Part shown: positions 2,063 through 61,203 of the stretch, in pieces
How positions within the stretch are numbered: the first letter of the stretch is position 1
Layout: each line of letters opens with the position of its first letter
Sequence record: MH719082.1
Reading direction: 5' to 3' (one strand)
Source of the DNA: Escherichia phage vB_EcoM_IME392
DNA length: 64,000 nucleotides
Made by a program: the position numbers and the translations under genes
Notes under the pieces: model-generated
Seen by the model: the letters and a program-made list of their open reading frames with translations, nothing else
The model's database searches: none
Told to the model about the DNA's origin: nothing

Positions 2063-2083
2063 GTGTCCTCCTCTTTGAACACT

Positions 2084-2114
2084 TTAACAGCCTTTGGAAC
2101 CCTATAAAGAGCGG
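2084..2114 (-). promoter_or_regulatory. 31-bp conserved intergenic motif (putative phage-RNAP promoter)
   Basis: TTAACAGCCTTT..AAAGAGCGG on + strand; about 22 nt upstream of minus-strand start at 2062. Confidence 0.5.
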
Positions 2115-8994: not shown

Positions 8995-9026
8995 CTTTGT
9001 TATTCCTTACGGTTGGATTGACACTT

Positions 9027-9056
9027 TAACAGCCTTTTAGCACCCTAAAAGAGCGG
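9027..9056 (-). promoter_or_regulatory. 31-bp conserved intergenic motif (putative phage-RNAP promoter)
   Basis: Abuts stop of upstream gene; about 33 nt upstream of ligase start at 8994; internal hairpin CTTTTAG-cacc-CTAAAAG. Confidence 0.5.
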
Positions 9057-14728: not shown

Positions 14729-14783
14729 ATCGTACCTTAACGAGTAAATAAAAATAGGCTGTTAACCGAGGGCGCTCCCCAAG

Positions 14784-14813
14784 TTAACAGCCTTTGGACC
14801 GTATTAAACGGCG
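14784..14813 (-). promoter_or_regulatory. 31-bp conserved intergenic motif (variant)
   Basis: TTAACAGCCTTTGG...AAACGGCGG; additional upstream inverted copy GGCTGTTAAC forming 10-bp stem. Confidence 0.45.
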
Positions 14814-15148
14814 GCAGTCAGGAAGTTACTGGAGATCAGGAAATCATCCAGAGCTACTTCTGTATTCTTAGGAGTATTGTCTAACTCCCATTCACCTACT
14901 CCCAAACGGATCTTAGCCACGCCAGGAGCAATCTCTTCAATAGCTAGCTTAGAGCCACCGATTATCTGGAGGCGAAGAGCATTTACAGCTACTGCATACC
15001 CAGAGAACGCAGTCTCTACCTGGTGACGGAACTCCTGGTCGGAATTAACCTTAGCAGCGTAAGCAGCAGGTTCCATACCCAGTTGCTTAGCATACATCAG
15101 ATGAAACATGTCCAGGTTAATTTTGTTACCAGTAGTCTTCTTAGTCAT
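14804..15148 (-). CDS. hypothetical protein
   Basis: ORF track. Confidence 0.45.
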   Translation of the reverse strand: MTKKTTGNKINLDMFHLMYAKQLGMEPAAYAAKVNSDQEFRHQVETAFSGYAVAVNALRLQIIGGSKLAIEEIAPGVAKIRLGVGEWELDNTPKNTEVALDDFLISSNFLTAAV

Positions 15149-22918: not shown

Positions 22919-22943
22919 GATTTAACTCCGTATTATAATGAAC

Positions 22944-23048: not shown

Positions 23049-23051
23049 ATA

Positions 23052-23065: not shown

Positions 23066-23072
23066 TAATGAA

Positions 23073-24533: not shown

Positions 24534-24638
24534 CTTAAATCCTTATTTAAGTGATCACACGCGAGAAATAAATGGGATGATCAGTCCCTACTCGCTAAGT
24601 GGTGAACGGATTCATCCGTGTAGTCTCCGTCCACCAGA

Positions 24639-24669
24639 TTAACAGCCTTTCGAGTCATCAAAAGAGCGG
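24639..24669 (-). promoter_or_regulatory. 31-bp conserved intergenic motif
   Basis: Consensus match; about 105 nt upstream of start at 24533. Confidence 0.5.
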
Positions 24670-28209: not shown

Positions 28210-28238
28210 GTTTAACTCCAAAAATAAACCTCCGCCAA

Positions 28239-28270
28239 TTTAACAGCCTTTTAGGCCGCTAAAAAGGCGG
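28239..28270 (-). promoter_or_regulatory. 31-bp conserved intergenic motif
   Basis: Consensus match immediately upstream of DNA polymerase RBS. Confidence 0.5.
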
Positions 28271-28278
28271 AGGTATCT

Positions 28279-31185: not shown

Positions 31186-31774
31186 TGCCAATAGCCTCTT
31201 TAACCAGGTGCTCGATTGAACTACCATGTGCCATATGGAGAAGAGACTGGAGAGTACCCATCCATACATCATCACTCACTTCGTCTTTGTACTTATTGAA
31301 GCAGGTACTGAAGATGTTGCGGCAGTTCTCCAGCTCGCTTTCGCCAAAGAAGATGTTACCCATGCTGAACTCAGTCATGATCTCACGAGATACCGCAATC
31401 GCATCTGCAACTTTACAGATGAACTTAGCTTCGGCAGATGCAGGAGTGCGGAAAGTAGGAAGTACCTCTTCCCAGATTTCCTGCTCAACTTTATTCAGAG
31501 TCTCTTTTAACTCTGGGAAGCGAGCCTTAGCAGTGTAGGGGACATCACCTGTAAAGATCTCTGGAATGTCGTGAACCAACGAGTACTGATTTACTTCCAG
31601 ACCCTGCTCAGCAGTTAAAAATCCATCCATCACCAGTTTCTGAACAATCAGAGTAGAGTAGTAAGTAACTTCGAAGCTATGCTCCGAGATAGTAGAGCGA
31701 TGAGACAGTACTTGCTTACCTGCGAAGCGATTCACGTTATTGGTACACACTGGTACCTTAAAAAGATCTTTCAT
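31175..31774 (-). CDS. HD-domain phosphohydrolase (YfbR-like 5'-deoxynucleotidase)
   Basis: H...HD...D signature (HSFEV ... HDIPEIFTGDVP). Confidence 0.55.
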   Translation of the reverse strand: MKDLFKVPVCTNNVNRFAGKQVLSHRSTISEHSFEVTYYSTLIVQKLVMDGFLTAEQGLEVNQYSLVHDIPEIFTGDVPYTAKARFPELKETLNKVEQEIWEEVLPTFRTPASAEAKFICKVADAIAVSREIMTEFSMGNIFFGESELENCRNIFSTCFNKYKDEVSDDVWMGTLQSLLHMAHGSSIEHLVKEAIGNAD

Positions 31775-31826
31775 GTAATTTCTCCTAAGTTACAAAAATA
31801 AAGGTATGGAAGTTGCCTCCCACACC

Positions 31827-31857
31827 TTAACAGCCTTTCGAGCCCTAAAAAGAGCGG
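31827..31857 (-). promoter_or_regulatory. 31-bp conserved intergenic motif
   Basis: Consensus match upstream of HD-domain gene start at 31774. Confidence 0.5.
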
Positions 31858-33662: not shown

Positions 33663-33682
33663 TTAAGAATCTTTCCCACATT

Positions 33683-33713
33683 TTAACAGCCTTTCAAGAC
33701 CCTAAAAGAGCGG
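33683..33713 (-). promoter_or_regulatory. 31-bp conserved intergenic motif
   Basis: Consensus match about 20 nt upstream of kinase start at 33662. Confidence 0.5.
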
Positions 33714-35790: not shown

Positions 35791-35817
35791 GTTTAATTTC
35801 TCCGTAGGCTGTCACAA

Positions 35818-35850
35818 TTTAACAGCCTTTTAGCTCATCAAAGAAGCGAG
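35818..35850 (-). promoter_or_regulatory. 31-bp conserved intergenic motif (variant)
   Basis: TTAACAGCCTTTTAG...AAAGAAGCGAG; upstream GGCTGT forms hairpin with ACAGCC. Confidence 0.45.
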
Positions 35851-37541: not shown

Positions 37542-37557
37542 GTACGCCTCTGACACC

Positions 37558-37588
37558 TTAACAGCCTTTTAGGTCATCAAACAGGAGG
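37558..37588 (-). promoter_or_regulatory. 31-bp conserved intergenic motif (variant, overlaps 3' end of transporter CDS)
   Basis: Left half conserved; right half diverged where it overlaps last codons of 37577-38959. Confidence 0.4.
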
Positions 37589-38959
37589 AGTTTCCTTAGC
37601 CAAGAATACTTTAGGTACAAAGATCTTGAGGAACCCGAATAGAATACACAATACCCCAATCAGTACCGGAACAGCCGATACAGCTACCAGAGTCTTCGTT
37701 ACAGTTACTACGTCACCACCTGCCCAGTTAAGTGCAGCAGCAACTACACCCATGCTTACAATCCAGAATACACGAGTTCTAGGAGCGGTCATGGACTCTA
37801 CCGTAATACCTGCTGAGTCATGACCTGTAATAAAGAACAGAATCACAGACACGAGGGTAATTACTGAGAATATCCATCCGCCTGGGAAATTAGCCAGAAG
37901 CTGGAAGATATCCTGAGCACCATGTTGCAAACCGGCTACACCGAATACGGTAAACCATACGTTACTGATAATGGTAGGGAACAGTACACATCCCAGGATC
38001 AGTTCGCGAATAGTACGGCCGTAAGAGATACGTGCCACAAACGCTCCGACGAATAATGCCCAACCTACCCAGGCTGCATAGTAAGCATAAGGCCAGCTAG
38101 CCAGCCATTGCTTCTCTTCAGCAGTACTGCCAATGTTTACCGACATAGGAATAATCTGGAGCAGATAGCTGCCAGAATAGGTGATGGTCTTCCAGAGGTA
38201 TTCAAAGAATGTACCACTTACAGCAACGAATGCCATAATAGATAGAGCTACGATTACATTATATCTGGATAACCACTTAACCCCACGATCGACACCAGTT
38301 ACGGCACTAAGTACAGTGCCCAGAGTCAGGAGTGCGATAATGGTGTAAGGACCAACATCCACACCAAGGAACTCTTTAAATCCAGAACTGATCGGGCCTA
38401 CTGCGTAGACGAACGACAGGGTTAAGCCTATGATGGTCGAGAAGAGTAAGCTTATCGTATTAAGGTTATTCAGAGTTCGGGACTTGAATAACTGATTAAG
38501 CGGACGGTCTTCACCACGTACATGCAGTAAGTACCCGAATGCCACCCCTACGACTGCATACACAGCCCATGCATTAAGTCCCCAGTCAAAGAAGGTAGTT
38601 ACCATATTCTGACGTTCGGACATACCCTCCTGATGATGGTACATAGGTTCGAGTACGCCATAATAAATCATGGATACACCCATACCGGTACTAAACATCA
38701 TAGAGTAATAGGTAAAGCGATTGTATTTCGGAGTACCTTTACCCAGCTTAATGTTACCATGTTTGCTGAATACAAAGAATGCCAGGAACGCCAGGAAGAT
38801 CAGCGAAGACCAGGTAAATATGAATCCATACTGAGATATAAATACAGACTTACTCCAGTCCATTACAGCACCAAACTGGGTGGGAGCAAACATAATGGCG
38901 AGTACAATACCCACCGTTACCAGCACCGTCCCCCAGGTAACTACCTTTGAATCGGACAT
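37577..38959 (-). CDS. BCCT family transporter (betaine/carnitine/choline-type)
   Basis: Multi-pass membrane protein; FVGAFVARISYGRTIRE matches the BCCT signature. Confidence 0.8.
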   Translation of the reverse strand: MSDSKVVTWGTVLVTVGIVLAIMFAPTQFGAVMDWSKSVFISQYGFIFTWSSLIFLAFLAFFVFSKHGNIKLGKGTPKYNRFTYYSMMFSTGMGVSMIYYGVLEPMYHHQEGMSERQNMVTTFFDWGLNAWAVYAVVGVAFGYLLHVRGEDRPLNQLFKSRTLNNLNTISLLFSTIIGLTLSFVYAVGPISSGFKEFLGVDVGPYTIIALLTLGTVLSAVTGVDRGVKWLSRYNVIVALSIMAFVAVSGTFFEYLWKTITYSGSYLLQIIPMSVNIGSTAEEKQWLASWPYAYYAAWVGWALFVGAFVARISYGRTIRELILGCVLFPTIISNVWFTVFGVAGLQHGAQDIFQLLANFPGGWIFSVITLVSVILFFITGHDSAGITVESMTAPRTRVFWIVSMGVVAAALNWAGGDVVTVTKTLVAVSAVPVLIGVLCILFGFLKIFVPKVFLAKETPPV

Positions 38960-39871: not shown

Positions 39872-39898
39872 TTTAATTCCTCAGTTAACTTGTACAAC

Positions 39899-39928
39899 CT
39901 AACAGCCTTTCGAACCCTAAAAAGAGCG
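39899..39928 (-). promoter_or_regulatory. 31-bp conserved intergenic motif (variant)
   Basis: CTAACAGCCTTTCGAACCCTAAAAAGAGCG about 27 nt upstream of start at 39871. Confidence 0.45.
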
Positions 39929-39942
39929 AAATAATAGATATC

Positions 39943-40713: not shown

Positions 40714-40739
40714 GTTCTGTCCTCATTAGTTTCGACACC

Positions 40740-40770
40740 TTAACAGCCTTTGGAGCCGTAAAAGAAGTGG
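40740..40770 (-). promoter_or_regulatory. 31-bp conserved intergenic motif
   Basis: Between terminator hairpin and methyltransferase start at 40713. Confidence 0.5.
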
Positions 40771-44053: not shown

Positions 44054-44088
44054 AATTTCTCCGGTCAGGTTTAAATAAGCTCACACAG

Positions 44089-44120
44089 TTTAACAGCCTT
44101 TGGAGGCCTCAAAGGAGCGG
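44089..44120 (-). promoter_or_regulatory. 31-bp conserved intergenic motif
   Basis: Upstream of topoisomerase ATPase gene start at 44053. Confidence 0.5.
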
Positions 44121-44752
44121 TTCACGAACAGGACTAAATCCTCTACTCTGGACTTATCTACCCACTCTGTTCTTCCTGGTAAGGACCTATTAGACTCGGA
44201 GAAGAAAGATAATCTCACTTTTGATTCTAAATCCACTCCCTCTTCTTTAGGCATCTCGATTAAGATTAGCGGGGTCATACCGATGCCTAATCCATCTAAT
44301 CTTCTTTCTATATTTGAAGTAATCCCATATTTAGCATTTCCAGATTGGTCCAATACGATATAAAAGACCACCTTACCTTCTGGAATGGTAGATATCGCTA
44401 GGTTCTTAATCACAGAGTTAGCGTATTCAGGATTCAACCATCGTTTATGATTTGAAGAGGATATCACTTTAGACATCTTCTTCTGGTAGTTCTCATCTTC
44501 CCACATTTTAATGTTGCGATTAGTCATGGAAACAGACCTAGCCCTGGTGGCGCATTCTGATCTTCCACATGTAGGACGATAGCCCTTAATCACGGATTTA
44601 AAGGAGCAGGGTTTTCCACATGAACATATTTTTACAGGAAAGAATTTTAAGTAATATTCATGCGGAGTTAAGCCATGAGATTTGGCATGGGAGGGAAATG
44701 CCTGGCCTCTTACTTCGGCAGAGCATATTCTACATTTATGATTCATAATCAT
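44090..44752 (-). CDS. putative GIY-YIG-like endonuclease with N-terminal zinc-binding region
   Basis: FYIVL...YGITSNIERRL resembles GIY-(x10)-YIG with downstream Arg; N-terminal Cys/His cluster. Confidence 0.35.
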   Translation of the reverse strand: MIMNHKCRICSAEVRGQAFPSHAKSHGLTPHEYYLKFFPVKICSCGKPCSFKSVIKGYRPTCGRSECATRARSVSMTNRNIKMWEDENYQKKMSKVISSSNHKRWLNPEYANSVIKNLAISTIPEGKVVFYIVLDQSGNAKYGITSNIERRLDGLGIGMTPLILIEMPKEEGVDLESKVRLSFFSESNRSLPGRTEWVDKSRVEDLVLFVNRSFEASKGC

Positions 44753-44990
44753 ACCACTTAGTTAATTCAAGGAAGTCATCCATCGCGGAATTAAAGAAGG
44801 AGTCTATCTCCTTAGCCATTTCCTTGGCGAAGCGACCAGATTCGGTCGACATCACTACCTTAGCCTCGCCCATAGGGTGCTTGACCACTTCGTAGATTCC
44901 CAGATTTGGGTAATACACTATGCTGGATAGGAAGTTTACAGACTTAACCACCACAGTATTGAATTGAGTTACTTCCACCATCTTAATCAT
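44736..44990 (-). CDS. hypothetical protein
   Basis: ORF track. Confidence 0.4.
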   Translation of the reverse strand: MIKMVEVTQFNTVVVKSVNFLSSIVYYPNLGIYEVVKHPMGEAKVVMSTESGRFAKEMAKEIDSFFNSAMDDFLELTKWYDYES

Positions 44991-45226: not shown

Positions 45227-45249
45227 ATAATAATCCCAAATTAGAAGAT

Positions 45250-45335
45250 CCGCAGCGGGAACGCCCCGCCACCCAAAAGAACGGGCTTTAGGAGGTCCCA
45301 TAAATCGTTTTATTTTTCATTATTTGAAAAATAAA
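45250..45335 (-). repeat. composite conserved intergenic element, family B, copy 5
   Basis: GCGGG-aacgc-CCCGC hairpin + CACCCAAAAGAACGGGCTTTA...AAATCGTTTTATTTTTCATTATTTGAAAAATAA. Confidence 0.5.
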
Positions 45336-45373: not shown

Positions 45374-48139
45374 CTACTCTTCCATAAACGTAGTTACGTT
45401 ATTGGAAAGGTAGGCACCAATTTTAGTGTTATATCTCTGGAAGGTAGGAACATGGGTAACCAGGATGATGTGGTTAACCGGAATGTCCTGAAGAGCATCA
45501 ATAGCTACGTCCAGAGTATTTACGTCCAGATTTCGCAGAGACTCATCCAGAATCAGACATCCTGCTCCCTTACTGAGGCTAATCAGCTTACCGATGAACA
45601 GTACGTCCACCAGGTTCTGTTGGCCACCAGACAGATCAGCATACGGAATTAACAGATCTCCAACTTTGTATTGAACATCGAAGTCAATCTTGATAGCTCC
45701 GTTAGCCTGTTCACGAACAGTAGAAATTACCATATCTCCACCAGTCATCATAGCAGCTACTTCTTTGAAGATAGAAGCAGTTACATCGCCGCTATTAGTG
45801 AACAGGCTCTGATACTCAACCAGTTTCTGATACTTAGGCTGGAGAATAGCCAACTGCGCATTAGCATCGTCGAGTTTCTTCTGAGCCTCGTCCATACGAG
45901 TCTTCAGACTACGAAGAGTAGCCATAGCGCCGATGGTAGAGTTGATCTCGATTAGCTCCTGCTCCAGCTTAGCCACTTCCTCTTCGAGAACCTGCACGGA
46001 AGGATAGGACTTAGTCTTACTCTTAAGCACTTCCACGTCGCTATTAACGGTATGGATCTTCTGACGAAGAGTAGCCACATCGTTCAGCAGACCGGACTTA
46101 CGTCTTAGTTCGGCTAATTCACTATTCTTAACGTTAAGCTTCTCTCTGAGTTCATCAGACTTAGGAGCCTTACTGATCTCAGCCTCGACAGCATCCAGCT
46201 TAGTAACAGATGCAGATCCTTGGGTTTCGAGATCATCCATCTTAGCTCTGATAGACTTCTCTACTTCTTTAATGTCCTCTTCCTTAAGGGACTGCTTACA
46301 GGTTGGGCACGTAGTAGGGATGTTGCGCATCTCGGTCTCGAGCTTAGTTAACTCCTTCTCTAAGCGAGTTAACTCATTAGTCAGAGATTCACTCTGATTA
46401 TGCAGTGACCGGATGTTACCTTCTACTTCAGATACCTCGGCATCCAGAGTAGTGATTTCGTCCCGGACCTTAGCGAGAGCGGAGTTAACCTCCTCTTCGT
46501 TAAAGTCAATCTTGAACGCAGCCAGAGAATCTTCCAGCATCTGGAGACTCTGTAGCTTACTGTCCAGATTACCCAGCTCACGGATCTTCTGACGAATATC
46601 ATCAATCTGTGGCAGGATTCGAGACTTATCTTCTTCCAGATTACTCACGTCCTTAAGTTTGGAGAAGTCGTGATCCTCCATGGTCTTAAGGACTTCTTCC
46701 TGAGCAGTTACCTGGGTCTGATAGTTACTGATCTCTACCTTACAGTTCTTAGCCGAGGCCTTTGCGACAGCTTCGTACTGGTTAATTACGGTAAGACCGA
46801 GCATCTTCGTGATCAGGTTAATACGTTCGTTGAATCCGAACTGGCTCAAGAACGGAGGACTATTCTGGGAACGATACAGAAGATCGAAGTGTTCGAGGAA
46901 TGGCAACATCTCCCAGAGCTTAGCTTCACGCTCTCGGATACTACCACCATCCATCTCATCACCATCAATCCAGACTCGGAAAGTCTGACCACCAGCCCAA
47001 TGGCGACTGATCAGGAATTCACGACCACCATACTCTAGCATCACTTCTACCAGAAGATGGTCTTGACCGCGTCTCACCACGTTACGAGGACTGTCGCTAC
47101 CAGTTAAGCAGTAGTTAAGAGCTCTCAGCAACGAGGATTTACCGTTACCAGTTTCGCCGTAGAGATAAGTAAGACCTCGCTTAAAGTTAAGCTCCAGCTT
47201 ATCAATACTGCGGAAGTTCTCTACCTTAATACTATTCAAGGTAAAGTTAAGGTCGAAGACCGACTCGGAACGATCAACGTGGGTAGACATCTCATCATGG
47301 ATATCTTTAAGACCCTTTGCCCGAACGACTTTGTCGATTACTTCTTCAACATCGATAGATTTAACTGAGATGCGTGAAGCATCCATCATCTGAGCTCTTT
47401 CACGAACTACCAGATGAGGGTAATTATCCATACCGGCAGGTACTTCATCTTCCCAGTACATCTTGAGGTATTTGTAGGAGTCAGACTCTACCGGAACCCG
47501 CTGCCAGGAAAGATCTTTAAGATCCAGCAGCACCAAGCTACCGTCCTGACAGTCACCCATCCCGTGAGGAATAGGTACGTTAACCGAGTGGGTATGACCG
47601 ATGCTGATAGGACGATGGATGTCACCAGCAAATCCCAGCTCATACTTAGTATCGTCGAACTCCTGACCAAACATAGAGGACAGAGTAATGTGGCCAATAA
47701 GGACATCTACTTTATCTTCGATAAAACTGAAGTCCTGGGTAGGACGCCAGTCGCTAAAGGCGACCTTACGGCCACCTAAGTTCAGGATTTTACCATCGAC
47801 ATATTCTGCCTTACCAGCGAGGATCGGCACCAGTGAGTTCTGGTAGTGATCAGCATCTACTGATTTGGAGTTAATGTCGTGGTTACCCAGAATATAATAA
47901 ATCTCGGTAAACTGCTCACCGAGGATCTCCATAAACTGGGATGTAGCGTGTGCAATTTTAGGCTCATGCTGAGCCTTATGCACTAAGTCGCCAGCGATAG
48001 ACAGACAGGTTACTTTATGTTCCCTGCCCATCTCCGCCATACGATGAGCTAAACCGATAAACTGCTTTAAGCGAAACCCTTCCGAGTTATGCTGCTGAAA
48101 TTCATGGATATGAATATCAGCTACGATCAACATTTTCAT
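45374..48139 (-). CDS. fused SbcD/Mre11-like nuclease and SbcC/Rad50-like ATPase
   Basis: N-terminal metallophosphatase motifs (DIHIHE, GDLVH, GNHD, GHTH); then Walker A GETGNGKS, coiled coils with CPTC zinc hook, signature LSGGQQ and Walker B ILDES in one 921-aa ORF. Confidence 0.8.
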   Translation of the reverse strand: MKMLIVADIHIHEFQQHNSEGFRLKQFIGLAHRMAEMGREHKVTCLSIAGDLVHKAQHEPKIAHATSQFMEILGEQFTEIYYILGNHDINSKSVDADHYQNSLVPILAGKAEYVDGKILNLGGRKVAFSDWRPTQDFSFIEDKVDVLIGHITLSSMFGQEFDDTKYELGFAGDIHRPISIGHTHSVNVPIPHGMGDCQDGSLVLLDLKDLSWQRVPVESDSYKYLKMYWEDEVPAGMDNYPHLVVRERAQMMDASRISVKSIDVEEVIDKVVRAKGLKDIHDEMSTHVDRSESVFDLNFTLNSIKVENFRSIDKLELNFKRGLTYLYGETGNGKSSLLRALNYCLTGSDSPRNVVRRGQDHLLVEVMLEYGGREFLISRHWAGGQTFRVWIDGDEMDGGSIREREAKLWEMLPFLEHFDLLYRSQNSPPFLSQFGFNERINLITKMLGLTVINQYEAVAKASAKNCKVEISNYQTQVTAQEEVLKTMEDHDFSKLKDVSNLEEDKSRILPQIDDIRQKIRELGNLDSKLQSLQMLEDSLAAFKIDFNEEEVNSALAKVRDEITTLDAEVSEVEGNIRSLHNQSESLTNELTRLEKELTKLETEMRNIPTTCPTCKQSLKEEDIKEVEKSIRAKMDDLETQGSASVTKLDAVEAEISKAPKSDELREKLNVKNSELAELRRKSGLLNDVATLRQKIHTVNSDVEVLKSKTKSYPSVQVLEEEVAKLEQELIEINSTIGAMATLRSLKTRMDEAQKKLDDANAQLAILQPKYQKLVEYQSLFTNSGDVTASIFKEVAAMMTGGDMVISTVREQANGAIKIDFDVQYKVGDLLIPYADLSGGQQNLVDVLFIGKLISLSKGAGCLILDESLRNLDVNTLDVAIDALQDIPVNHIILVTHVPTFQRYNTKIGAYLSNNVTTFMEE

Positions 48140-50056: not shown

Positions 50057-50117
50057 CTTTGTGATCTCTATTTAAACAATGTTTCAACAATCATAATCAG
50101 AGTTGCCCTCTGACACC

Positions 50118-50148
50118 TTAACAGCCTTTCGACCCTCCAAAAGAGCGG
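50118..50148 (-). promoter_or_regulatory. 31-bp conserved intergenic motif
   Basis: Upstream of SSB-like gene start at 50056. Confidence 0.5.
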
Positions 50149-54781: not shown

Positions 54782-55321
54782 TTACTCCTCTTTACTCTGG
54801 TAAAGTAACTGGATATCTGCCGAGTTCTCGACATATTCCTGAGCTATTCGAATAGCTCTAACGACCATAGCCTTCTCTCCCCAGCTTAGGAATTCTGGGG
54901 TAGCAGCCATCTTAACTACTAACTCGCGAGAAAGATCTTCGATACACTTAATCTTGTTCGAGACCTTAGGGAACGCAAGTCTATTATTAATAGTTATACG
55001 ATCAGCAGGAATCTGGGTGAAGGTCTCGCTGAATAGTCTATCGAAATCTCCGATATTTAATTCAGTGAAATAACCCTTACCCTCTTCTGTATCGAATATA
55101 CCATGAACAACTACTTCTTGTCGAATAGATACATTTAGTAAGTACTTCGAGTTCAACAAGATAACGTAGATGCTCGAATAGCTCCGAAGATCTCGTTTCC
55201 ATGCTGATAGGGACTCAGTAGGTGATCCCTTGTATTCTACTCCCGAATTCAGAAGCATCTTACAAAATGGGTCTAGGCTGTTAATTACTACAGTACTCAT
55301 TGTATTCTCCTCACGTGCCAC
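54782..55321 (-). CDS. hypothetical protein
   Basis: ORF track. Confidence 0.45.
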   Translation of the reverse strand: MAREENTMSTVVINSLDPFCKMLLNSGVEYKGSPTESLSAWKRDLRSYSSIYVILLNSKYLLNVSIRQEVVVHGIFDTEEGKGYFTELNIGDFDRLFSETFTQIPADRITINNRLAFPKVSNKIKCIEDLSRELVVKMAATPEFLSWGEKAMVVRAIRIAQEYVENSADIQLLYQSKEE

Positions 55322-55323
55322 AG

Positions 55324-55355
55324 TTTAACAGCCTTTCGACGCTAATTAAAGGTGG
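55324..55355 (-). promoter_or_regulatory. 31-bp conserved intergenic motif (variant)
   Basis: Immediately upstream of start at 55321; overlaps stop of 55346-55657. Confidence 0.45.
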
Positions 55356-55657
55356 TCTTTAACAGTTCCCAGGATAGCTTCTCTGGTGTGGATTAGGCCA
55401 GATCGATTAATCTCTACTTTGGTGGTAGTCACCATTTCGAATACTTCCAGCTCAATACCAGGATGAGCCATGCATGTATGAATCAATACAGACAGAGCAT
55501 CATCATAGCTGGGATAACCAGTGGCATATTTATGATTGTCGTTCCACAGGCGGTCGGTTGCATGCCTGCGTTCGCTGATGTAAGATATCTTACCTTCTTT
55601 CATCCGGCCTACATAATACTTAGCTTCGGAATTATCCGAAATATGTAACGTTTCCAT
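55346..55657 (-). CDS. hypothetical protein (103 aa)
   Basis: ATG at 55657 with AGGAGA RBS; ORF-track start at 55696 is over-extended. Confidence 0.5.
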   Translation of the reverse strand: METLHISDNSEAKYYVGRMKEGKISYISERRHATDRLWNDNHKYATGYPSYDDALSVLIHTCMAHPGIELEVFEMVTTTKVEINRSGLIHTREAILGTVKDHL

Positions 55658-55701
55658 AATTTCTCCTAATGGGGAGTTTTTACCTCCCCCGAGCAAAGGT
55701 A

Positions 55702-56254: not shown

Positions 56255-56310
56255 AATTTTACATAATAGGTAAGTTGGACACAGAAGGACGCAGTCACGC
56301 CTCCACCGTT

Positions 56311-56341
56311 TTAACAGCCTTTTAGGTCATTAAAACGGCGG
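56311..56341 (-). promoter_or_regulatory. 31-bp conserved intergenic motif (variant)
   Basis: TTAACAGCCTTTTAGGTCATTAAAACGGCGG; abuts stop of GT32-like gene. Confidence 0.45.
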
Positions 56342-57239: not shown

Positions 57240-57770
57240 GCGTACTCGAGGAGTACAGAAGCTTAGCGAAGAGCGGAGTAACCATTTGATTTAAACAGTC
57301 ACCGTAGAGAGCGAAGGAGTCGCGCCCGCTTGAGGCGGCGCGACCTCCGCTTCACCAATCCTACCGGATGGACGCCTGCGACCACCCGAGCCTACCCCTG
57401 CCTCACTCACTAAAGCCACTTCGGGCTTTACCTCGTTCCGCTACGCGATACGCAGGCAGATAGCTACACTAAGTCCCCTGGAGATGGCTAGTAAGTATCC
57501 GTTACCAGACCATGTCCAACCTAACATTGACGAAGCCAGGGACTAGGCACTCCTCGCCAATAAGCTACATTAGGATTTATGTCCGTATTTCGAAGATAGG
57601 CCGATCGGGGAGACTATGCATTCATCTCTGCTCAACCAGGAAGCACCGATTAGGGTAAATACCCAAACTATCTTCTTAATGTCACTCCTCCCAGACCGCT
57701 TCGGGACTTAGCTTAAGTCTTATCCGAATAATCTGGCATCTACGACGGACCGTAGTGTATGGAGCGTACT
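57240..57770 (-). ncRNA. ORF-free structured region (candidate ncRNA or long structured leader)
   Basis: No ORF of 60 aa or more in any frame; multiple strong hairpins (e.g. GGAGUCGCGCCCGC-loop-GCGGCGCGACCUCC at 57313-57347); lies between a 31-bp motif copy and gene start at 57140. Confidence 0.35.
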
Positions 57771-57774
57771 GCAA

Positions 57775-57805
57775 TTTAACAGCCTTTTGACTCATCAAAA
57801 GAGCG
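57775..57805 (-). promoter_or_regulatory. 31-bp conserved intergenic motif
   Basis: Internal perfect hairpin CTTTTGA-ctca-TCAAAAG; precedes the ORF-free structured region. Confidence 0.5.
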
Positions 57806-57923
57806 TAATTAGGGCCCGATTATTTCACTTAGCTTCCATCCGTTCGGGCCAACACGGATCGTACATGACGTTACCGTCGTTTCAAGTCACTCGGATTATT
57901 AGTTCCCGGTGCTCATATAAAGA

Positions 57924-58104: not shown

Positions 58105-58180
58105 TGGTGGTCCATACTGGTTTCGAACCAGTGACCAAGCGATTATGAGTCGCCTGCTCTCACCACTGAGCTAATGGACC
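58105..58180 (-). tRNA. tRNA-Met (anticodon CAU; could be initiator, elongator or lysidine-Ile)
   Basis: Manual cloverleaf: acceptor GGUCCAU/AUGGACC, D-arm GCUC/GAGC, anticodon stem GGCGA/UCGCU with loop CUCAUAA, T-arm ACUGG-UUCGAAA-CCAGU, encoded ACCA. Confidence 0.8.
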
Positions 58181-58649
58181 GAACTAGATTGAGCGATAGG
58201 CTATGGAGTACCTTACCATCGGGCGTCTTTCGCTAAATAGCCCATCATGGGCTACCGCAGGGGCATGACACCTATCGCTCAAATTGGTCGGGATCGTGGC
58301 CCACGTCGGAGGATTTGCCAAACTCCCCATTATCATAGCCTAAGCTATCCAGACGGCCGTAACTACCCTGCTCCGGTACATGCGATAATGGGGACGTATC
58401 CAAAGATGTGGAGATCCCGTTAAAATATCTTAAGCTTCTCGCTATGTGTGTCCTACACTCTACCCTTGCGGGGTACCGGAGGATGAATCCGAACTTCCTG
58501 CGACCACACACGGAGGCCCTTGCAGACGTGCTTTATTGCGCTCATCCTGGCATAGCGAGAACTTAAGATATCTATTGATGCGCACCAGATAAGTATTTCC
58601 CAAGCCATGAACTTAATCTGGGATCTTGACCTATCCAGTGCGACTTATG
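58181..58649 (-). ncRNA. structured inter-tRNA region with long-range helices
   Basis: 12-bp inverted repeat TTGAGCGATAGG / CCTATCGCTCAA (58190-58201 and 58271-58282); 17-bp interrupted repeat 58431-58448 / 58551-58567. Confidence 0.3.
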
Positions 58650-58725
58650 TGGTACTCCCTACTGGATTCGAACCAGTGACCGTCGGTTTAGAAGACCGAT
58701 GCTCTATCCTCTGAGCTAAGGGAGC
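58650..58725 (-). tRNA. tRNA-Arg (anticodon UCU)
   Basis: Manual cloverleaf: acceptor GCUCCCU/AGGGAGU, D-arm GCUC-AGAGGAUA-GAGC, anticodon stem UCGGU/ACCGA with loop CUUCUAA, T-arm ACUGG-UUCGAAU-CCAGU, encoded CCA. Confidence 0.8.
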
Positions 58726-59302
58726 TTAACTTTAGGATGACCTCTTAGCTTACCATCGCGAAAGCTACATGGAGTGTAGTTAACGTGAACTAAGAGGTCA
58801 TCATAAAATCAGTTACTGACGAATTATACTTTCCCAACCATCCACATATACTGCGTTGGCTATGTAAAGAATGCAGAACAAGCCAACGATTAAAGGATTA
58901 ATCATTGTACTTCTCCATTTAATTAAGTTACCTGCTTACTGTTACAGGGACGCCGTTCGTCGCGCCAGATTACCAATTGGCGTATTAAGCCAATCTCGCC
59001 AACCGCGTAACGCCATTGGCTGGTATCACATAGGCTTGTAGCCCTCAGTCAACCTATCCTGAGGATGAAGATCAGATACTCTCTAACGGCGGGATTGATA
59101 GTCCCAGAGTACGATCTCTTTGCCATTCTCGTATGACCTAGGAGACGACTGCCCTGGTTAAGGAGACCAGACAGCTGATATGGTTTAGTTTATTTTTAAT
59201 TTGAGTCCCACTCATACCTTACAGACTCAAGCACTGCAGACCACCATGAAGCCGACTCGTACGCTAACAGTCGACACCACGGATCCATGAAACTCCAACA
59301 AT

Positions 59303-59332
59303 TTAACAGCCTTTCGACTCATCAAAAGAGTG
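59303..59332 (-). promoter_or_regulatory. 31-bp conserved intergenic motif
   Basis: Consensus match at upstream edge of tRNA region. Confidence 0.5.
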
Positions 59333-59485
59333 TTAAATTGTCCGCTCCCTATCACCGAGCACTGTGATGATGGGAAAATAGGGAGCGAAGCGATTCCTAA
59401 GTTTTATCTCTTCTCTAAGTGATTAACCGTTACATACGATGTACCTTCTCGAAAGAATTAAGCCGGTATTGGCACTTCAGACACT

Positions 59486-59516
59486 TTAACAGCCTTTCGA
59501 CCGTACAAAAGAGCGG
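59486..59516 (-). promoter_or_regulatory. 31-bp conserved intergenic motif
   Basis: Exact 31-mer identical to copy at 61173-61203. Confidence 0.5.
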
Positions 59517-59521
59517 CGTAA

Positions 59522-60064
59522 TTAGACGCTCGCCTCAGGCACTTTAACAGCCTTTGGACGTGTAAAAAGAGCGGGATTATACCATTCTGGGGTACGATAG
59601 AAAGAGATCTTACGACCCTCTTTCTTCCAGAAGTAGAATTTATCGTTGAGGTAGTTACGGTACTTCTCGTAGACTGTCTCACCAGGAGCACCTGATACAC
59701 ATGCATACGGAGTCATATCGGTCTCTGGACCTACTACCAGATTTTTAGGTAGTGCCACAAGACGGGATAAAATTTCTTCGGTTGCATGGAGCCGTCCGGT
59801 ACGTTCAAAGAATAGCATGCATAAATAGCTTGCCAAGTCACGAACGAAGTTGTAGTTACCTGACGATTCACGAACCCACTTAGCACACGGATGATTAACA
59901 TGCGTCTGCTTATAAATACCCTCGATAGCGTTTTCGCCATCCAGAACATGATGAGCAGTAGATAATAACTGAGCACACTCAATAATCATTTTATTCTGGT
60001 GCATAGGCATACAGTGGTCCATAGCACATTCTAACGCATCTTCGTGAGTACGGAAAATATTCAC
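59522..60064 (-). CDS. hypothetical protein (C-terminal 23 codons coincide with a copy of the 31-bp motif)
   Basis: ORF track; GTG start with AGGAG RBS. Confidence 0.45.
   Translation of the reverse strand: MNIFRTHEDALECAMDHCMPMHQNKMIIECAQLLSTAHHVLDGENAIEGIYKQTHVNHPCAKWVRESSGNYNFVRDLASYLCMLFFERTGRLHATEEILSRLVALPKNLVVGPETDMTPYACVSGAPGETVYEKYRNYLNDKFYFWKKEGRKISFYRTPEWYNPALFTRPKAVKVPEASV
59544..59574 (-). promoter_or_regulatory. 31-bp conserved motif copy inside annotated CDS 3' end
   Basis: Tandem with copy at 59486; encodes last 23 codons of ORF 59522-60064. Confidence 0.4.
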
Positions 60065-60148
60065 AATAATTACTCCTAACGTGGTTGCTTACTTTAAGTC
60101 TCTCGTGAAAGATTTAGAGTAAGCATCGGAGGAATTACCTCCGACACT

Positions 60149-60179
60149 TTAACAGCCTTTCGACGGCACAAAAGAGCGG
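60149..60179 (-). promoter_or_regulatory. 31-bp conserved intergenic motif
   Basis: About 85 nt upstream of start at 60064. Confidence 0.5.
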
Positions 60180-61153: not shown

Positions 61154-61172
61154 ATTTGATTCCTCCAACAAG

Positions 61173-61203
61173 TTAACAGCCTTTCGACCGTACAAAAGAG
61201 CGG
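61173..61203 (-). promoter_or_regulatory. 31-bp conserved intergenic motif (outermost copy at strand-switch region)
   Basis: 20 nt upstream of start at 61153; identical to copy at 59486. Confidence 0.5.

What the first reader, a model, noticed from the sequence alone, without database searches (positions are those of the whole stretch)
59486..59574. Tandem duplicated 31-bp motif, one copy forming the last 23 codons of a gene
Two motif copies lie 58 bp apart; the distal copy (59544-59574) is in frame within ORF 59522-60064 and encodes ...PALFTRPKAVKVPEASV. Similar partial overlaps with CDS 3' ends occur at 37558-37588 (transporter) and 55324-55355. Either the element tolerates coding constraint (the right half diverges where it overlaps codons) or these ORFs have been extended by capture of a regulatory repeat.
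Basis: seen in the sequence. Interest (0 to 1): 0.4.

Follow-up and report, generated by a model that had tools for sequence, protein, structure and literature searches.

The report
Tandem phage promoters overlapping a gene
Two neighbouring copies of a roughly 40-bp signal that this E. coli phage puts in front of its early and middle genes, most likely a phage-specific promoter; one copy also encodes the tail of the preceding repair-enzyme gene, an ordinary result of tight gene packing, although this promoter family has not been described.

Summary
Two motif copies lie 58 bp apart, and the upstream one is read in frame as the end of ORF 59522-60064.

The motif is longer than reported (about 37-43 bp: CCGCTCTTTT-N6-TCGAAAGGCTGTTAAnnTG-nGGAGG). 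It has 21 copies in the window, all on the gene strand, against about 0 expected by chance. The related complete genome EP_H11 has 24 copies. All lie in the early/middle gene block, none in the structural block, and one sits at the head of the block.

I read it as a class-specific phage promoter. This is inferred; there are no transcript data.

The ORF is a DenV-like glycosylase homologue. Distant homologues end at ...TPEWY, so the 17-residue tail is a lineage-specific read-through into the promoter.

The tandem pair is old and conserved: two further contigs, one about as divergent as EP_H11, keep both copies 58 bp apart. EP_H11 has one chimeric copy, which fits a deletion by recombination between the two.

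A related Acinetobacter phage and a metagenomic relative carry the same core. A second motif class shares the skeleton AAAGnCnGTTnnnnTG.

Canonical sigma-70 features are incomplete. The phage encodes split beta' homologues, so phage-specific recognition is favoured but unproven.

The coding overlap is ordinary; the promoter family is moderately interesting.

The parts
59538..59574 (-). Class-1 motif copy A (CCGCTCTTTTTACACGTCCAAAGGCTGTTAAAGTGCC). It lies entirely inside the 3' end of ORF 59522-60064.
   Evidence: score 53.6. Orthologous copies are present in L141 and L140. Its left part matches the single EP_H11 copy.
59480..59516 (-). Class-1 motif copy B (CCGCTCTTTTGTACGGTCGAAAGGCTGTTAAAGTGTC). 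It starts 5 nt after the ORF's stop codon and 58 bp downstream of copy A.
   Evidence: (score 58.2). The 58-bp spacing is conserved in L140 and L141.
59297..59333 (-). Class-1 motif copy C, the third of the cluster. Its two halves form a 20-nt inverted repeat that is 85% complementary.
   Evidence: families D1 and I1; score 52.8. Orthologues are present in EP_H11, L140 and L141.
59522..60064 (-). ORF of 180 aa, a homologue of phrog_624. Many homologues carry Pfam PF03013 Pyr_excise, the T4 DenV-like pyrimidine-dimer glycosylase family.
   Evidence: E 6.7e-42; precomputed PF03013 on many homologues. Pfam gave no hit on the window protein itself.
59525..59575 (-). Lineage-specific C-terminal tail, residues 164-180 (PALFTRPKAVKVPEASV). 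Copy A encodes residues 164 to about 176; the A-B spacer encodes the rest. The TAA stop is at 59522-59524.
   Evidence: Alignment A3: homologues end at TPEWY plus 0-3 residues. Tails in relatives are shown.
60143..60179 (-). Class-1 motif copy upstream of the DenV-like ORF. A 6-8 bp hairpin (CGGAGGTAATTCCTCCG) follows, starting just after the conserved TG.
   Evidence: score 63.5; hairpin -13.5 kcal/mol, z -3.0.
61167..61203 (-). Class-1 motif copy at the head of the leftward gene block, in the divergent region between the two gene blocks. It ends 13 nt before the first ATG (61153).
   Evidence: EP_H11 has its orthologue at 97465, in the same divergent region.
57770..57806 (-). Class-1 motif copy downstream of the tRNA genes.
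56305..56341 (-). Class-1 motif copy enclosed by a 12-bp inverted repeat (CTCCGCCGTTTT ... AAAACGGTGGAG).
   Evidence: -16.4 kcal/mol, z -5.9. EP_H11 keeps the pairing through a different wobble pair.
55319..55355 (-). Class-1 motif copy. The stop codon of the upstream ORF 55346-55696 lies inside it (10-nt overlap).
50112..50148 (-). Class-1 motif copy followed by a hairpin (TCAGAGGGCAACTCTGA).
44084..44120 (-). Class-1 motif copy. The upstream ORF 44090-44752 stops at the TAA of the core. The motif's 5' edge coincides with the boundary of a 637-nt insertion relative to EP_H11.
40734..40770 (-). Class-1 motif copy.
39893..39929 (-). Class-1 motif copy (core variant TGTTAG).
37552..37588 (-). 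Class-1 motif copy. The stop codon of the BCCT-transporter ORF lies inside it (12-nt overlap). A strong hairpin lies downstream.
   Evidence: -21 kcal/mol, z -4.4.
35813..35849 (-). Class-1 motif copy. The upstream ORF's stop codon lies inside it (12-nt overlap).
33677..33713 (-). Class-1 motif copy upstream of the AAA_28 gene.
   Evidence: An orthologous site is present in L142.
31821..31857 (-). Class-1 motif copy upstream of ORF 31175-31774. It abuts the stop codon of the thymidylate-synthase-like gene.
   Evidence: The corresponding site in L142 lies upstream of a YfbR-like gene.
28234..28270 (-). Class-1 motif copy upstream of the DNA polymerase gene. It is enclosed by an inverted repeat (ACCTCCGCC ... 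GGCGGAGGT) that is followed by a run of T.
   Evidence: -21.9 kcal/mol, z -6.0. An orthologous site is present in L142.
24633..24669 (-). Class-1 motif copy upstream of the 486-aa ORF. Homology with EP_H11 ends right after TGTTAA, where EP_H11 carries an extra 303-aa gene.
14778..14814 (-). Class-1 motif copy. Its core pairs with an inverted partial copy at 14754-14765, and a run of T follows, so it looks like a terminator.
   Evidence: (the single - strand hit).
9020..9056 (-). Class-1 motif copy upstream of the NAD-dependent DNA ligase gene.
2078..2114 (-). Class-1 motif copy.
58650..58725 (-). tRNA-Arg (TCT), about 570 nt downstream of copy C.
58105..58180 (-). tRNA-Met (CAT).
58726..59296 (-). 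Conserved, ORF-poor region between the promoter cluster and the tRNAs. It is presumably transcribed from copies A, B and C.
   Evidence: Four-genome alignment. No Rfam family matched. Fold z-score is only -0.75.

Best explanation
The motif is a class-specific promoter of the phage's early/middle genes. These genes cover replication, nucleotide metabolism, DNA modification, the beta' homologues and the tRNAs.

Its layout is bipartite:
- an upstream element, CCGCTCTTTT;
- a 6-nt variable spacer;
- an invariant core, AAAGGCTGTTAA-nn-TG;
- a purine-rich stretch (nGGAGG).

Transcription probably starts at, or within a few bases after, the conserved TG.

Copies A, B and C at 59.3-59.6 kb form an old, conserved promoter cluster. 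It sits ahead of a non-coding region and the tRNA genes.

The DenV-like gene upstream has no stop codon of its own before copy A. Translation therefore runs through the promoter in one of its two open frames and ends at a TAA in the A-B spacer. This adds a 17-residue tail, which is a by-product of dense packing rather than a selected protein feature.

Because the copies are alike, they can recombine. EP_H11 lost the 58-bp unit in this way and now has one A/B chimera. Other gene-content differences also end at motif edges.

Recognition is most likely by phage-specific machinery rather than by unaided host sigma-70 holoenzyme. The candidates are an RNA polymerase containing the phage's split beta' homologues, possibly delivered in the virion as reported for YerA41, together with an unidentified specificity factor. 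This last step is inference.
For: Shown directly:
- Copy number and strand. There are 21 copies, all on the gene strand, against about 0 expected.
- Genome distribution in EP_H11. There are 24 copies, all on the + strand within the early/middle block and none in the structural block 59678-97324.
- One copy sits in the divergent region at the head of the block, 13 nt before the first start codon. An RNA-processing or terminator element would have no upstream transcript there.
- Copies are packed between a stop codon (0-8 nt upstream in 8 cases, overlapping in 6) and a Shine-Dalgarno sequence plus start codon 12-99 nt downstream.
- Eight copies lie in the first 5.9 kb of the block.
- Selection acts on the DNA motif. 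Between orthologous copies, changes fall mainly in the spacer hexamer and in flanking positions, while the AAAGGCTGTTA core is almost untouched.
- Conservation at a distance. The core recurs at orthologous intergenic sites in L142, a relative with 58% amino-acid identity. It also recurs in Acinetobacter phage Ab1-TPeters, where 15 sites lie on the + strand in the early/middle block.
- A second motif class (6 copies) shares the skeleton AAAGnCnGTTnnnnTG. That skeleton has 24 hits, all on the - strand, against 0.1 expected.
- Canonical sigma-70 promoters are not enriched. Counts were 36 found against 36.2 expected, and 5 against 7.9. The scan calls none of the copies.
- The phage encodes split beta' homologues. 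In the relative YerA41, RNA polymerase subunits were found in virions (PMC7354516).

Tail as a by-product:
- The four distant homologues aligned end at TPEWY plus 0-3 residues, and matches across 289 phage records typically stop near residue 161-162.
- Amino-acid changes in the tail map to the motif's free positions.

Age of the tandem pair:
- The A and B copies and their 58-bp spacing are kept in L141 and in L140, which has 86% amino-acid identity to the window protein.
- The EP_H11 copy matches A on its left and B on its right.
Against: - There are no transcript or 5'-end data, so promoter activity and the start site are inferred.
- No cognate factor was identified. Pfam and PHROG searches found no sigma factor and no beta subunit.
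- An AlphaFold model of the neighbouring 486-aa protein was unusable, with mean pLDDT 51.
- The core contains TGnTAAnnT in the register of a sigma-70 extended -10 element. Host holoenzyme therefore cannot be excluded.
- The motif has weak dyad symmetry (CTTTTGA/TCGAAAG). Two or three copies sit inside terminator-like hairpins, which would also suit an operator or a dual terminator-promoter.
- Evidence for a recombination role is thin. Six of 18 indel edges lie within 3 nt of a cassette. That is enriched against the whole genome, since none of 20,000 permutations reached it. It is not enriched against intergenic positions alone (P = 0.16).
- Only five related genomes or contigs were available.
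Confidence: 0.7

Rival explanations
1. The motif is a host-dependent early promoter. E. coli sigma-70 holoenzyme would read the core as an extended -10 element (TG-n-TAAnnT). The conserved upstream parts (AAAGGC and CCGCTCTTTT) would serve as an UP-like or activator site, in the manner of T4 early promoters or MotA-dependent middle promoters.
For: - TGnTAAnnT occurs in the correct register in nearly all of the 40 distinct copies: the TG that follows is kept in 38 of 40, and T-12/A-11 in 39 of 40.
- Copies cluster at the head of the gene block, as early promoters do.
- The same core occurs in phages of two different hosts, E. coli and Acinetobacter. That fits the universal -10 reading by primary sigma factors.
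- No phage sigma factor or beta subunit was found.
Against: - No copy has a -35 hexamer, and none passes the sigma-70 scan.
- The invariant AAAGGC at -21 to -16 and the conserved G after the hexamer are not explained by sigma-70 contacts.
- The class-2 motif shares the skeleton AAAGnCnGTTnnnnTG but has CTTT where the -10 A/T positions would be. The shared element is therefore not a -10 box.
- No MotA or AsiA family appeared among the small ORFs.
- This phage group is reported to have hypermodified thymidines (bioRxiv 10.1101/2025.03.26.645540). From general knowledge of sigma-70, bulky groups on T-12 and T-7 should hinder -10 recognition.
Confidence: 0.2
2. The motif is not a promoter. It would be an operator for a dimeric phage regulator, or an RNA-level signal such as a processing site or a terminator/antiterminator, repeated between genes.
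For: - The motif has partial dyad symmetry. Copy C forms a 20-nt inverted repeat that is 85% complementary.
- The copies at 56311 and 28240 are enclosed by long inverted repeats, with z-scores near -6.
- The copy at 14784 pairs with an inverted partial copy, and a run of T follows.
- In Ab1-TPeters, the class-2 upstream element is a palindrome (AACTCAAAATTGAGTT).
Against: - RNAalifold finds no consensus structure across the 21 copies.
- The mean z-score of the motif fold is only -1.3.
- The enclosing hairpins are features of single copies.
- One copy lies upstream of the first gene of the block, where there is no upstream transcript to process or terminate.
- An operator without a promoter leaves the block with no recognisable promoters at all.
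- An operator overlapping a promoter is compatible with the best explanation rather than a rival to it.
Confidence: 0.07
3. The repeats are mainly selfish or mobile recombination cassettes that spread and shuffle genes. Any transcriptional role would be secondary.
For: - Several gene-content differences between the window and EP_H11 end exactly at motif edges (24639, 44123, and 59516/59535) or at class-2 cassettes (14103, 19084, 45246-45252).
- Copies within one genome share spacer hexamers that their orthologues lack, which suggests gene conversion. Window copies 59486 and 61173 share GTACGG. EP_H11 copies 99094 and 97465 share TACACC.
Against: - Edges are not enriched at cassettes once the test is restricted to intergenic positions (P = 0.16).
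- The strict strand and block specificity, the fixed position ahead of start codons, and the orthologous retention in L142 all point to a selected regulatory role.
- No transposase or homing enzyme is associated with the copies.
Confidence: 0.03

Closest known systems
PeSL cassettes (promoter-early stem-loops) of T4-like phages (Arbiol et al. 2010, PMC2839356; Comeau et al. 2014, PMC4122927)
   Same: Both are short conserved regulatory cassettes repeated between early genes, all in the direction of transcription. Some are paired with stem-loops. They lie at the edges of insertions, deletions and replacements between close relatives. Recombination between copies deletes the DNA between them, as in the single chimeric copy of EP_H11.
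   Different: [quoted passage not shown] Here there is no -35 element, only 5 of 21 copies are followed by a strong hairpin, and the phage is not T4-like. The association with indel edges is not statistically separable from a general intergenic preference. No mini-circles were tested.
Promoters of T7-like phages (own knowledge): about 23 bp, highly conserved, several in tandem (phi1.1A/phi1.1B) and several inside or overlapping coding sequence
   Same: Both are long, nearly invariant phage-specific sequences repeated ahead of gene groups and followed by a purine-rich start region. Both include tandem pairs and overlap the ends of upstream genes.
   Different: T7 promoters are read by a single-subunit RNA polymerase. 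No such gene was found here. This motif is bipartite with a variable spacer and is about 40 bp long.
T4 middle promoters (MotA box at -30 plus a sigma-70 -10 element; own knowledge)
   Same: Both have a -10-like TAnnnT element combined with a different conserved element in place of the -35 hexamer. Both belong to a temporal class that covers replication genes.
   Different: The upstream sequence is not a MotA box. No MotA or AsiA family was detected. Extra invariant bases lie between the two elements. The class-2 motif shows that the shared element is not the -10 box.
Promoters of non-canonical multisubunit phage RNA polymerases (phiKZ and AR9; own knowledge of work from the Severinov and Sokolova laboratories)
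   Same: The phage encodes split homologues of a large RNA polymerase subunit. It has distinct promoter classes for distinct gene blocks and modified bases in its DNA. In the relative YerA41, polymerase subunits are found in the virion (PMC7354516).
   Different: The beta' pieces here are much closer to bacterial beta' (phmmer E about 1e-50). No beta-like subunit was found. The consensus does not resemble what I recall of the phiKZ or AR9 consensus sequences; that comparison is from memory and was not tested.
Tandem promoters ahead of stable-RNA operons (for example bacterial rrn P1-P2; own knowledge)
   Same: Several promoters lie within about 280 bp ahead of a non-coding region and tRNA genes.
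   Different: There is no evidence here on promoter strength or regulation. The copies belong to the same family as those ahead of the protein-coding genes.

Membership tests
Canonical sigma-70 promoter | A -35 hexamer close to TTGACA, 16-18 bp upstream of the -10 hexamer | tested here: not met
   At that position the motif reads (T)CTTTT(G). The consensus scan called none of the motif copies.
Canonical sigma-70 promoter | A -10 hexamer with A at position 2 and T at position 6, optionally preceded by TGn (extended -10) | tested here: met
   TG-T-TAAnnT is present in nearly all of the 40 distinct copies from the window and EP_H11. The third position is always A rather than the consensus T.
Canonical sigma-70 promoter | Initiation by host holoenzyme | not testable with these tools
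   This needs in vitro transcription or rifampicin experiments.
T7-like single-subunit RNA polymerase promoter | The phage encodes a T7-type single-subunit RNA polymerase | tested here: not met
   PHROG and Pfam scans of the large ORFs of the window and of the EP_H11 structural block gave no such hit.
T7-like single-subunit RNA polymerase promoter | A contiguous conserved sequence of about 23 bp spanning -17 to +6 | tested here: not met
   The conserved unit is about 40 bp and bipartite, with a variable 6-nt spacer.
phiKZ/AR9-type multisubunit phage polymerase promoter | The phage encodes split beta and beta' homologues | tested here: inconclusive
   Two beta' pieces were found, at 16457-18025 and 19904-21418. 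No beta-like protein was detected by Pfam, PHROG or PDB sequence search. The structure prediction of the 486-aa candidate failed, with pLDDT 51.
phiKZ/AR9-type multisubunit phage polymerase promoter | A match to the published consensus sequences | not tested
   Those consensus sequences are known to me only from memory. No resemblance is apparent.
PeSL cassette (T4-like phages) | A sigma-70-like early promoter inside the cassette | tested here: not met
   There is no -35 element, and the scan does not call the copies.
PeSL cassette (T4-like phages) | An adjacent stem-loop that acts as a terminator | tested here: inconclusive
   Five of 21 class-1 copies are followed by a strong hairpin, and 2-3 copies are embedded in hairpins followed by a run of T. 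All six class-2 cassettes carry a G+C-rich hairpin. Terminator function was not tested.
PeSL cassette (T4-like phages) | Copies lie at the junctions of insertions, deletions and replacements between close relatives | tested here: inconclusive
   Six of 18 edges lie within 3 nt of a cassette. None of 20,000 permutations against all positions reached this count, but against intergenic positions P = 0.16. One clear case exists: the EP_H11 A/B chimera.
T4 middle (MotA-dependent) promoter | A MotA box ((a/t)(a/t)(a/t)TGCTTtA) centred near -30, and motA/asiA genes in the phage | tested here: not met
   The upstream element is CCGCTCTTTT. No MotA or AsiA family appeared among the Pfam hits for the 47 small ORFs or the larger ORFs.
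Structured RNA element (Rfam family or conserved hairpin) | A consensus secondary structure with covariation, or a match to a known family | tested here: not met
   RNAalifold predicts 0 pairs across the 21 copies. The only Rfam matches are the two tRNAs.

The most novel reading that the evidence does not exclude
The class-1 and class-2 motifs are the promoters of a previously uncharacterised transcription system in the RP13/YerA41/IME392-like phages, a group reported to have hypermodified thymidine.

In this reading, a phage polymerase built around split, bacterial-like beta' pieces initiates at the skeleton AAAGnCnGTTnnnnTG. It may be carried in the virion. It may use host beta, or a beta subunit too diverged to detect. 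Recognition may depend on the modified thymidines.

The repeated promoters would also act as the recombination joints that shuffle genes in this group, as PeSLs do in T4-like phages.
Probability: 0.3. Interest if true: 0.65.

Novelty: new member of a known kind. Interest (0 to 1): 0.38.

Why it matters
- Promoters of this phage group have so far only been predicted, for YerA41 alone, with a generic sigma-70 tool (BPROM, 42 sites; PMC9023294). That tool would miss this motif.
- A defined promoter family gives a direct route to how these phages transcribe heavily modified DNA. It comes with exact sites, a second class and a shared skeleton. It can be used to fish for the recognising factor, to design templates for in vitro transcription, and to sort genes into temporal classes.
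- For annotation, it shows that the last 17 residues of the DenV-like protein, and the last few codons of five other genes, are dictated by a regulatory element rather than by protein function.
- It explains the copy-number difference between IME392-like phages and EP_H11.
- The coding overlap itself is ordinary for a compact phage genome.

Tried and rejected
- **Exact-pattern scans of IMG/VR.** I searched AAAGGCTGTTAANNTG and CTCTTT-N10-AAAGGCTGTTAA. Only chance matches came back. The one contig with several hits (L087) is a coding tandem repeat. This lineage is not represented there in this form.
- **Literature.** Searches for EP_H11, IME392, YerA41 and RP13 found no description of this motif or of promoters for the group.
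- **A virion sigma factor.** The 2020 YerA41 paper lists a 'sigma factor' among particle proteins. The parts of the final YerA41 record I inspected (1-50,000 and 98,000-145,577) no longer annotate one. Pfam finds none among the EP_H11 structural-block proteins at the matching position.
- **A beta subunit or specificity factor.** Pfam, PHROG and PDB sequence searches of the ORFs around the beta' genes gave nothing. The 486-aa ORF has only 4 homologues. Its AlphaFold model has pLDDT 51, so I ran no fold search.
- **A conserved RNA structure in the motif.** Rejected.
- **A universal 5' stem-loop after the motif.** Rejected, because only 5 of 21 copies have one.
- **A small protein gene downstream of copy C.** Rejected. 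The 30-aa frame after copy C is broken by an indel in EP_H11.
- **A shared late-gene motif.** None was visible by eye in the intergenic regions of the EP_H11 structural block.
- **The YerA41 repeat.** It is a different sequence, so it is not evidence for this consensus.
- **A tool note.** Some early scripts failed because locus files hold several records each.
Full report
**What is in the sequence**

On the + strand, the window carries CACTTTAACAGCCTTTCGAC... at 59482 and 59540, so the 12-mer cores start at 59486 and 59544, 58 bp apart. A third copy lies at 59299 and a fourth at 60145. All genes from position 1 to about 61,200 are on the - strand, so the motif is best read on that strand: CCGCTCTTTT-N6-TCGAAAGGCTGTTAAAGTGT.

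ORF 59522-60064 (- strand, 180 aa) ends ...TPEWYNPALFTRPKAVKVPEASV. It reads straight through the 59544 copy (copy A). Its TAA stop lies 5 nt before the 59486 copy (copy B). The finding's coordinates and peptide are correct.

Three details need correcting:
- The conserved unit is about 37-43 bp rather than 31.
- It supplies 12-13 codons of a 17-codon tail, not 23 codons.
- The pair is not a recent duplication (see below).

**More than chance**

The 20-mer with up to 3 mismatches gives 16 hits against 0.00 expected. The 12-mer core with up to 1 mismatch gives 22 hits against 0.32 expected.

A weight matrix built from the copies finds 21 sites in the window. All are on the - strand and score 40-63. 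The best other position scores 9.4. Eleven consecutive columns (AAAGGCTGTTA) are invariant across the 21 copies.

**What the phage is**

The DNA is 91% identical to Escherichia phage EP_H11 (OP688485, 111 kb) over the region of the finding. The DenV-like protein is identical over 162 of 162 residues to a protein of phage vB_EcoM_IME392. The window is therefore IME392 or a very close relative.

Two papers place EP_H11 and IME392 in a group with RP13, YerA41 and SP-15. They infer that its thymidines are hypermodified (bioRxiv 10.1101/2025.03.26.645540 and PMC12686479).

The window encodes:
- DNA polymerase, helicases, topoisomerase II, ligase and an SbcCD-like nuclease;
- a thymidylate-synthase homologue and a 5-hmdU DNA kinase domain;
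- glycosyltransferases and a BCCT transporter;
- two pieces of an RNA polymerase beta' homologue. ORF 16457-18025 matches E. coli beta' up to residue 514, with the best stretch at 240-514 (E about 1e-50). ORF 19904-21418 matches about residues 690-950 (E about 1e-24 to 1e-28).

No beta subunit, sigma factor or single-subunit polymerase was detected.

**Where the motif sits**

EP_H11 has two gene blocks:
- an early/middle block on the + strand, running 97518 to the record end and on to 59624;
- a structural block on the - strand, 59678-97324.

All 24 EP_H11 copies are on the + strand inside the first block. None is in the structural block. The first copy lies in the divergent region between the blocks. 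In the window this is 61167-203, which ends 13 nt before the ATG of the first gene.

In the window:
- Eight copies begin 0-8 nt after the stop codon of the upstream gene.
- Six copies overlap the upstream gene.
- A Shine-Dalgarno sequence and start codon follow 12-99 nt downstream.
- Eight of the 21 copies lie in the first 5.9 kb of the block.

Canonical sigma-70 promoters are not enriched. Over the first 20 kb of the block the count was 36 against 36.2 expected. Over the 4.5 kb around the finding it was 5 against 7.9. The scan calls none of the motif copies.

The motif is therefore the only recurrent upstream signal for most of this block. It includes the one place where a promoter must exist. 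That is the main basis for calling it a promoter. It is an inference from position, because no transcript data exist.

**Conservation in relatives**

Between orthologous copies in the window and EP_H11, substitutions fall mainly in the 6-nt spacer and in the two free positions of TAAnnT. The core is almost untouched. At 60182/98489, for example, four of six spacer bases differ while 40 flanking bases are identical.

L142 is a Logan contig from a more distant relative, with 58% identity in the 486-aa protein. It carries CTAAAAGGCTGTTAAnnTG at orthologous sites: upstream of the AAA_28, YfbR-like and DNA polymerase genes and the gene for the 486-aa homologue. Its upstream half is degenerate.

Acinetobacter phage Ab1-TPeters has 37% beta' identity and the same two-block layout. 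It has 15 sites with the core CTGTT(T)AAnnTG, all on the + strand of its early/middle block. They carry two kinds of upstream element.

YerA41 has a repeated intergenic motif of its own, with a different sequence. It includes a tandem pair 52 bp apart.

**A second motif class**

L142 led me to a second motif, which the window also contains in six copies. All are on the - strand: 45288, 22983, 22628, 19160, 14050 and 10551. The form is ...AAATAAACGAtttTG-N9-AAAGCCCGTTCTTTTGG, then a G+C-rich hairpin, then a conserved leader (TCTAATTTGGAG) before the start codon.

Classes 1 and 2 share the skeleton AAAGnCnGTTnnnnTG. This pattern occurs 24 times in the window, always on the - strand, against 0.1 expected.

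In class 2, the four bases between GTT and TG are CTTT. They cannot form a -10 hexamer. The shared element is therefore not a sigma-70 -10 box, which weakens the host-sigma-70 reading of class 1.

**Which polymerase**

The class-1 core does read TG-T-TAAnnT, in the register of an extended -10 promoter. Host holoenzyme therefore cannot be excluded. I give that rival about 0.2.

Five points count against it:
- There is no -35 element.
- The invariant AAAGGC is unexplained by sigma-70 contacts.
- The shared skeleton with class 2 is not a -10 box.
- The phage has its own beta' pieces.
- RNA polymerase subunits are reported to be particle-associated in YerA41 (PMC7354516).

If the thymidines are bulky, sigma-70 should also have trouble with T-12 and T-7. 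That last point rests on general knowledge and was not tested here.

In four or five copies a strong hairpin begins at, or one base after, the conserved TG. A purine-rich nGGAGG follows the TG in most copies, whatever the distance to the start codon. Both observations suggest that transcription starts at or just after the TG. This is inference.

**The coding overlap**

The ORF matches phrog_624 over residues 1-169. Many of its homologues carry Pfam PF03013, the DenV-like pyrimidine-dimer glycosylase family.

Across 289 phage records, matches to the query typically end near residue 161-162. Aligned examples end at ...TPEWY, or its equivalent, plus 0-3 residues. Only the close relatives have the tail:
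- window: PALFTRPKAVKVPEASV
- L141: ...PEAIV
- L140: PALFTLPKAVKVSEASA
- EP_H11: PALFTPRKAVKVPEVTILS

The amino-acid differences, for example RP against PR against LP, arise from changes at the motif's free nucleotide positions. The DNA motif sets the peptide, not the other way round.

The motif is open in frame 2 in most copies. Frame 1 is closed in all copies, at the TAA of TGTTAA in most. Frame 0 is closed when the spacer begins GA, AG or AA. The six overlapping genes use all of these outcomes. In five the stop lies inside the motif, and only the DenV-like gene reads through.

Copy A keeps all invariant positions and has a mid-range score. There is therefore no sign that codon use has degraded it.

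**History of the tandem pair**

EP_H11 has one copy where the window has two (alignment A1). Two Logan contigs keep both copies, 58 bp apart:
- L141 has 99% protein identity to the window.
- L140 has 86% protein identity, about as diverged as EP_H11.

In both, the spacer of copy A (TACAC-G/T) and of copy B (GTACGG) is retained.

The EP_H11 copy matches A on its left, through ...GTGCC. It matches B on its right...GAAGTG-CAATAC. The simplest account is that the tandem pair is ancestral. EP_H11 then lost one 58-bp unit by recombination between A and B.

**Repeats as recombination joints**

A blastn comparison of the window with EP_H11 shows nine insertion, deletion or replacement events.

Edges at class-1 motifs:
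- Homology ends right after TGTTAA at 24639, where EP_H11 has an extra 303-aa gene.
- A 637-nt insertion ends at the 5' edge of the motif at 44123.
- The tandem unit accounts for the edges at 59516 and 59535.

Edges at or near class-2 cassettes lie at 14103, 19084 and 45246-45252.

Six of 18 edges are within 3 nt of a cassette. None of 20,000 permutations over all positions reached that count. Against intergenic positions only, P = 0.16. The resemblance to the PeSL cassettes of T4-like phages (PMC2839356, PMC4122927) is therefore suggestive rather than established.

Copies within one genome share spacer hexamers that their orthologues lack. This hints at gene conversion between copies.

**What the cluster may drive**

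About 570 nt downstream of copy C lie tRNA-Arg and tRNA-Met. EP_H11 has an additional tRNA-Gly.

The intervening region has no conserved ORF. It is strongly conserved in four genomes, with a few compensatory changes in a predicted fold. It matches no Rfam family. Its folding energy is not unusual, with a z-score of -0.75.

Three promoters within 280 bp ahead of stable-RNA genes would be a familiar arrangement.

**Alternatives**

An RNA-level element is unlikely. No consensus structure was found, and one copy lies upstream of the first gene of the block.

An operator function could coexist with promoter function. The weak dyad symmetry, and the copy-specific enclosing hairpins at 56311, 28240 and 14784, leave room for regulation or for combined terminator-promoter sites.

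**Verdict**

The 'right half diverges' idea is not.
- The thing itself is most likely a tandem pair, in fact a trio, of class-specific phage promoters. One of them doubles as the tail of the preceding gene.
- The overlap is ordinary for a compact phage genome.
- The promoter family, its second class and the shared skeleton are undescribed for this little-studied phage group. They are worth a modest follow-up.
- Confidence that the motif is a promoter, together with the by-product tail and the ancestral tandem pair, is about 0.7. That figure allows for recognition by either the phage or the host. Confidence that recognition is phage-specific is about 0.55.

Noticed in passing
window 45288, 22983, 22628, 19160, 14050, 10551 (first base of AAGCCCGTTC on the - strand); each cassette spans about +40 to -70 nt around it: A second repeated cassette of about 110 nt, with six copies all on the gene strand. 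It consists of an A+T-rich upstream part (AAATAAACGAtttTG), then AAAGCCCGTTCTTTTGG, a G+C-rich hairpin, and a conserved leader (TCTAATTTGGAG) before the start codon. It flanks the beta' genes. EP_H11 has six orthologues. L142 has the variant AAAGCGAGTTCTTTTGG.
   Followed up: partly
window 58726-59296 (- strand): An ORF-poor region between promoter copy C and tRNA-Arg that is strongly conserved in four genomes. RNAalifold predicts 77 pairs, 5 of them with compensatory changes. It matches no Rfam family, and its fold z-score is only -0.75. It may be a non-coding RNA or a pre-tRNA leader.
   Followed up: partly
window 16457-18025 and 19904-21418 (- strand), and the ORFs between and around them (15.9-24.5 kb): RNA polymerase beta' is encoded in two separate genes, with the C-terminal piece transcribed first. 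Both are fairly close to bacterial beta'. Sequence methods detected no beta homologue, sigma factor or alpha subunit anywhere. The unassigned neighbouring ORFs (486, 178, 146, 230 and 239 aa) are candidates for a diverged beta or a specificity factor.
   Followed up: partly
window 33740-34711 (- strand): This ORF matches Pfam PF18723, the helical domain of 5-hmdU DNA kinase (E 3e-35). A 2025 preprint on this phage group states that the kinase could not be detected. L142 has the same domain.
   Followed up: no
window 37577-38959 (- strand): A full-length BCCT betaine/carnitine/choline transporter (Pfam E 1e-92) is encoded in a lytic phage genome. EP_H11 annotates its orthologue as BetT. This is an unusual auxiliary gene.
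   Followed up: no
window 58431-58930; L001 5783-5858: The tRNA region is plastic. EP_H11 has a tRNA-Gly (TCC) that the window lacks. The flanks of tRNA-Arg are only about 80% identical or cannot be aligned between the two phages. In L140 the two tRNAs lie closer together. YerA41 also has adjacent tRNA-Arg and tRNA-Met in its early block.
   Followed up: partly
window 14754-14814 and 28228-28273 (- strand): Two class-1 copies are built into terminator-like structures. At 14784 the core pairs with an inverted partial copy (GTTAACAGCCT), and ATTTTTATTT follows. At 28240 a 9-bp G+C-rich inverted repeat encloses the whole motif, and TTTATTTTT follows. These may be combined terminator-promoter sites.
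   Followed up: partly
window 44124-44760, 14104-14721, 18794-19083; EP_H11 22492-23521 and 2297-2505: Whole small genes are present in one phage and absent from the other. The window has an extra 220-aa ORF, a two-ORF insert and a 112-aa ORF. EP_H11 has an extra 303-aa gene and an extra 48-aa gene. Most have one edge at a class-1 or class-2 cassette.
   Followed up: partly
L138 (YerA41) 30622, 34640, 34692, 35799, 39699: YerA41 has its own repeated intergenic motif (...AACTG-N-AAGAGTTnATCACCTTTAT...). It includes a tandem pair 52 bp apart, about 2.4 kb upstream of the phage's tRNA-Arg and tRNA-Met. The record annotates only BPROM-predicted sigma-70 promoters.
   Followed up: no
small ORFs of window 61-58511 (alignment A2; individual ORFs not located): Pfam hits among the 47 small ORFs include anti-CBASS Acb1, PinA protease inhibitor, RusA, a phosphopantetheine-binding domain, a PIG-L deacetylase, an Anti-TRAP-like/DnaJ zinc-finger domain and DUF7217 (E 2e-79).
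   Followed up: no
EP_H11 record 90115-90263 (- strand), outside the window: Upstream of the 242-aa ORF at 89386-90114, which lies just downstream of the putative capsid gene, there is a clear intrinsic terminator (GCTACGGCCTC...GAGGCCGTAG followed by T's). It is followed by TTGACA-N18-TAAATT. This is the only convincing sigma-70-like arrangement I saw in the structural block.
   Followed up: no
window 47421-47547; EP_H11 record positions 1-127 and 111247-111373: The same 127 bp of the window aligns to both ends of the linear EP_H11 record. This is either a short terminal repeat or an assembly overlap in that record.
   Followed up: no
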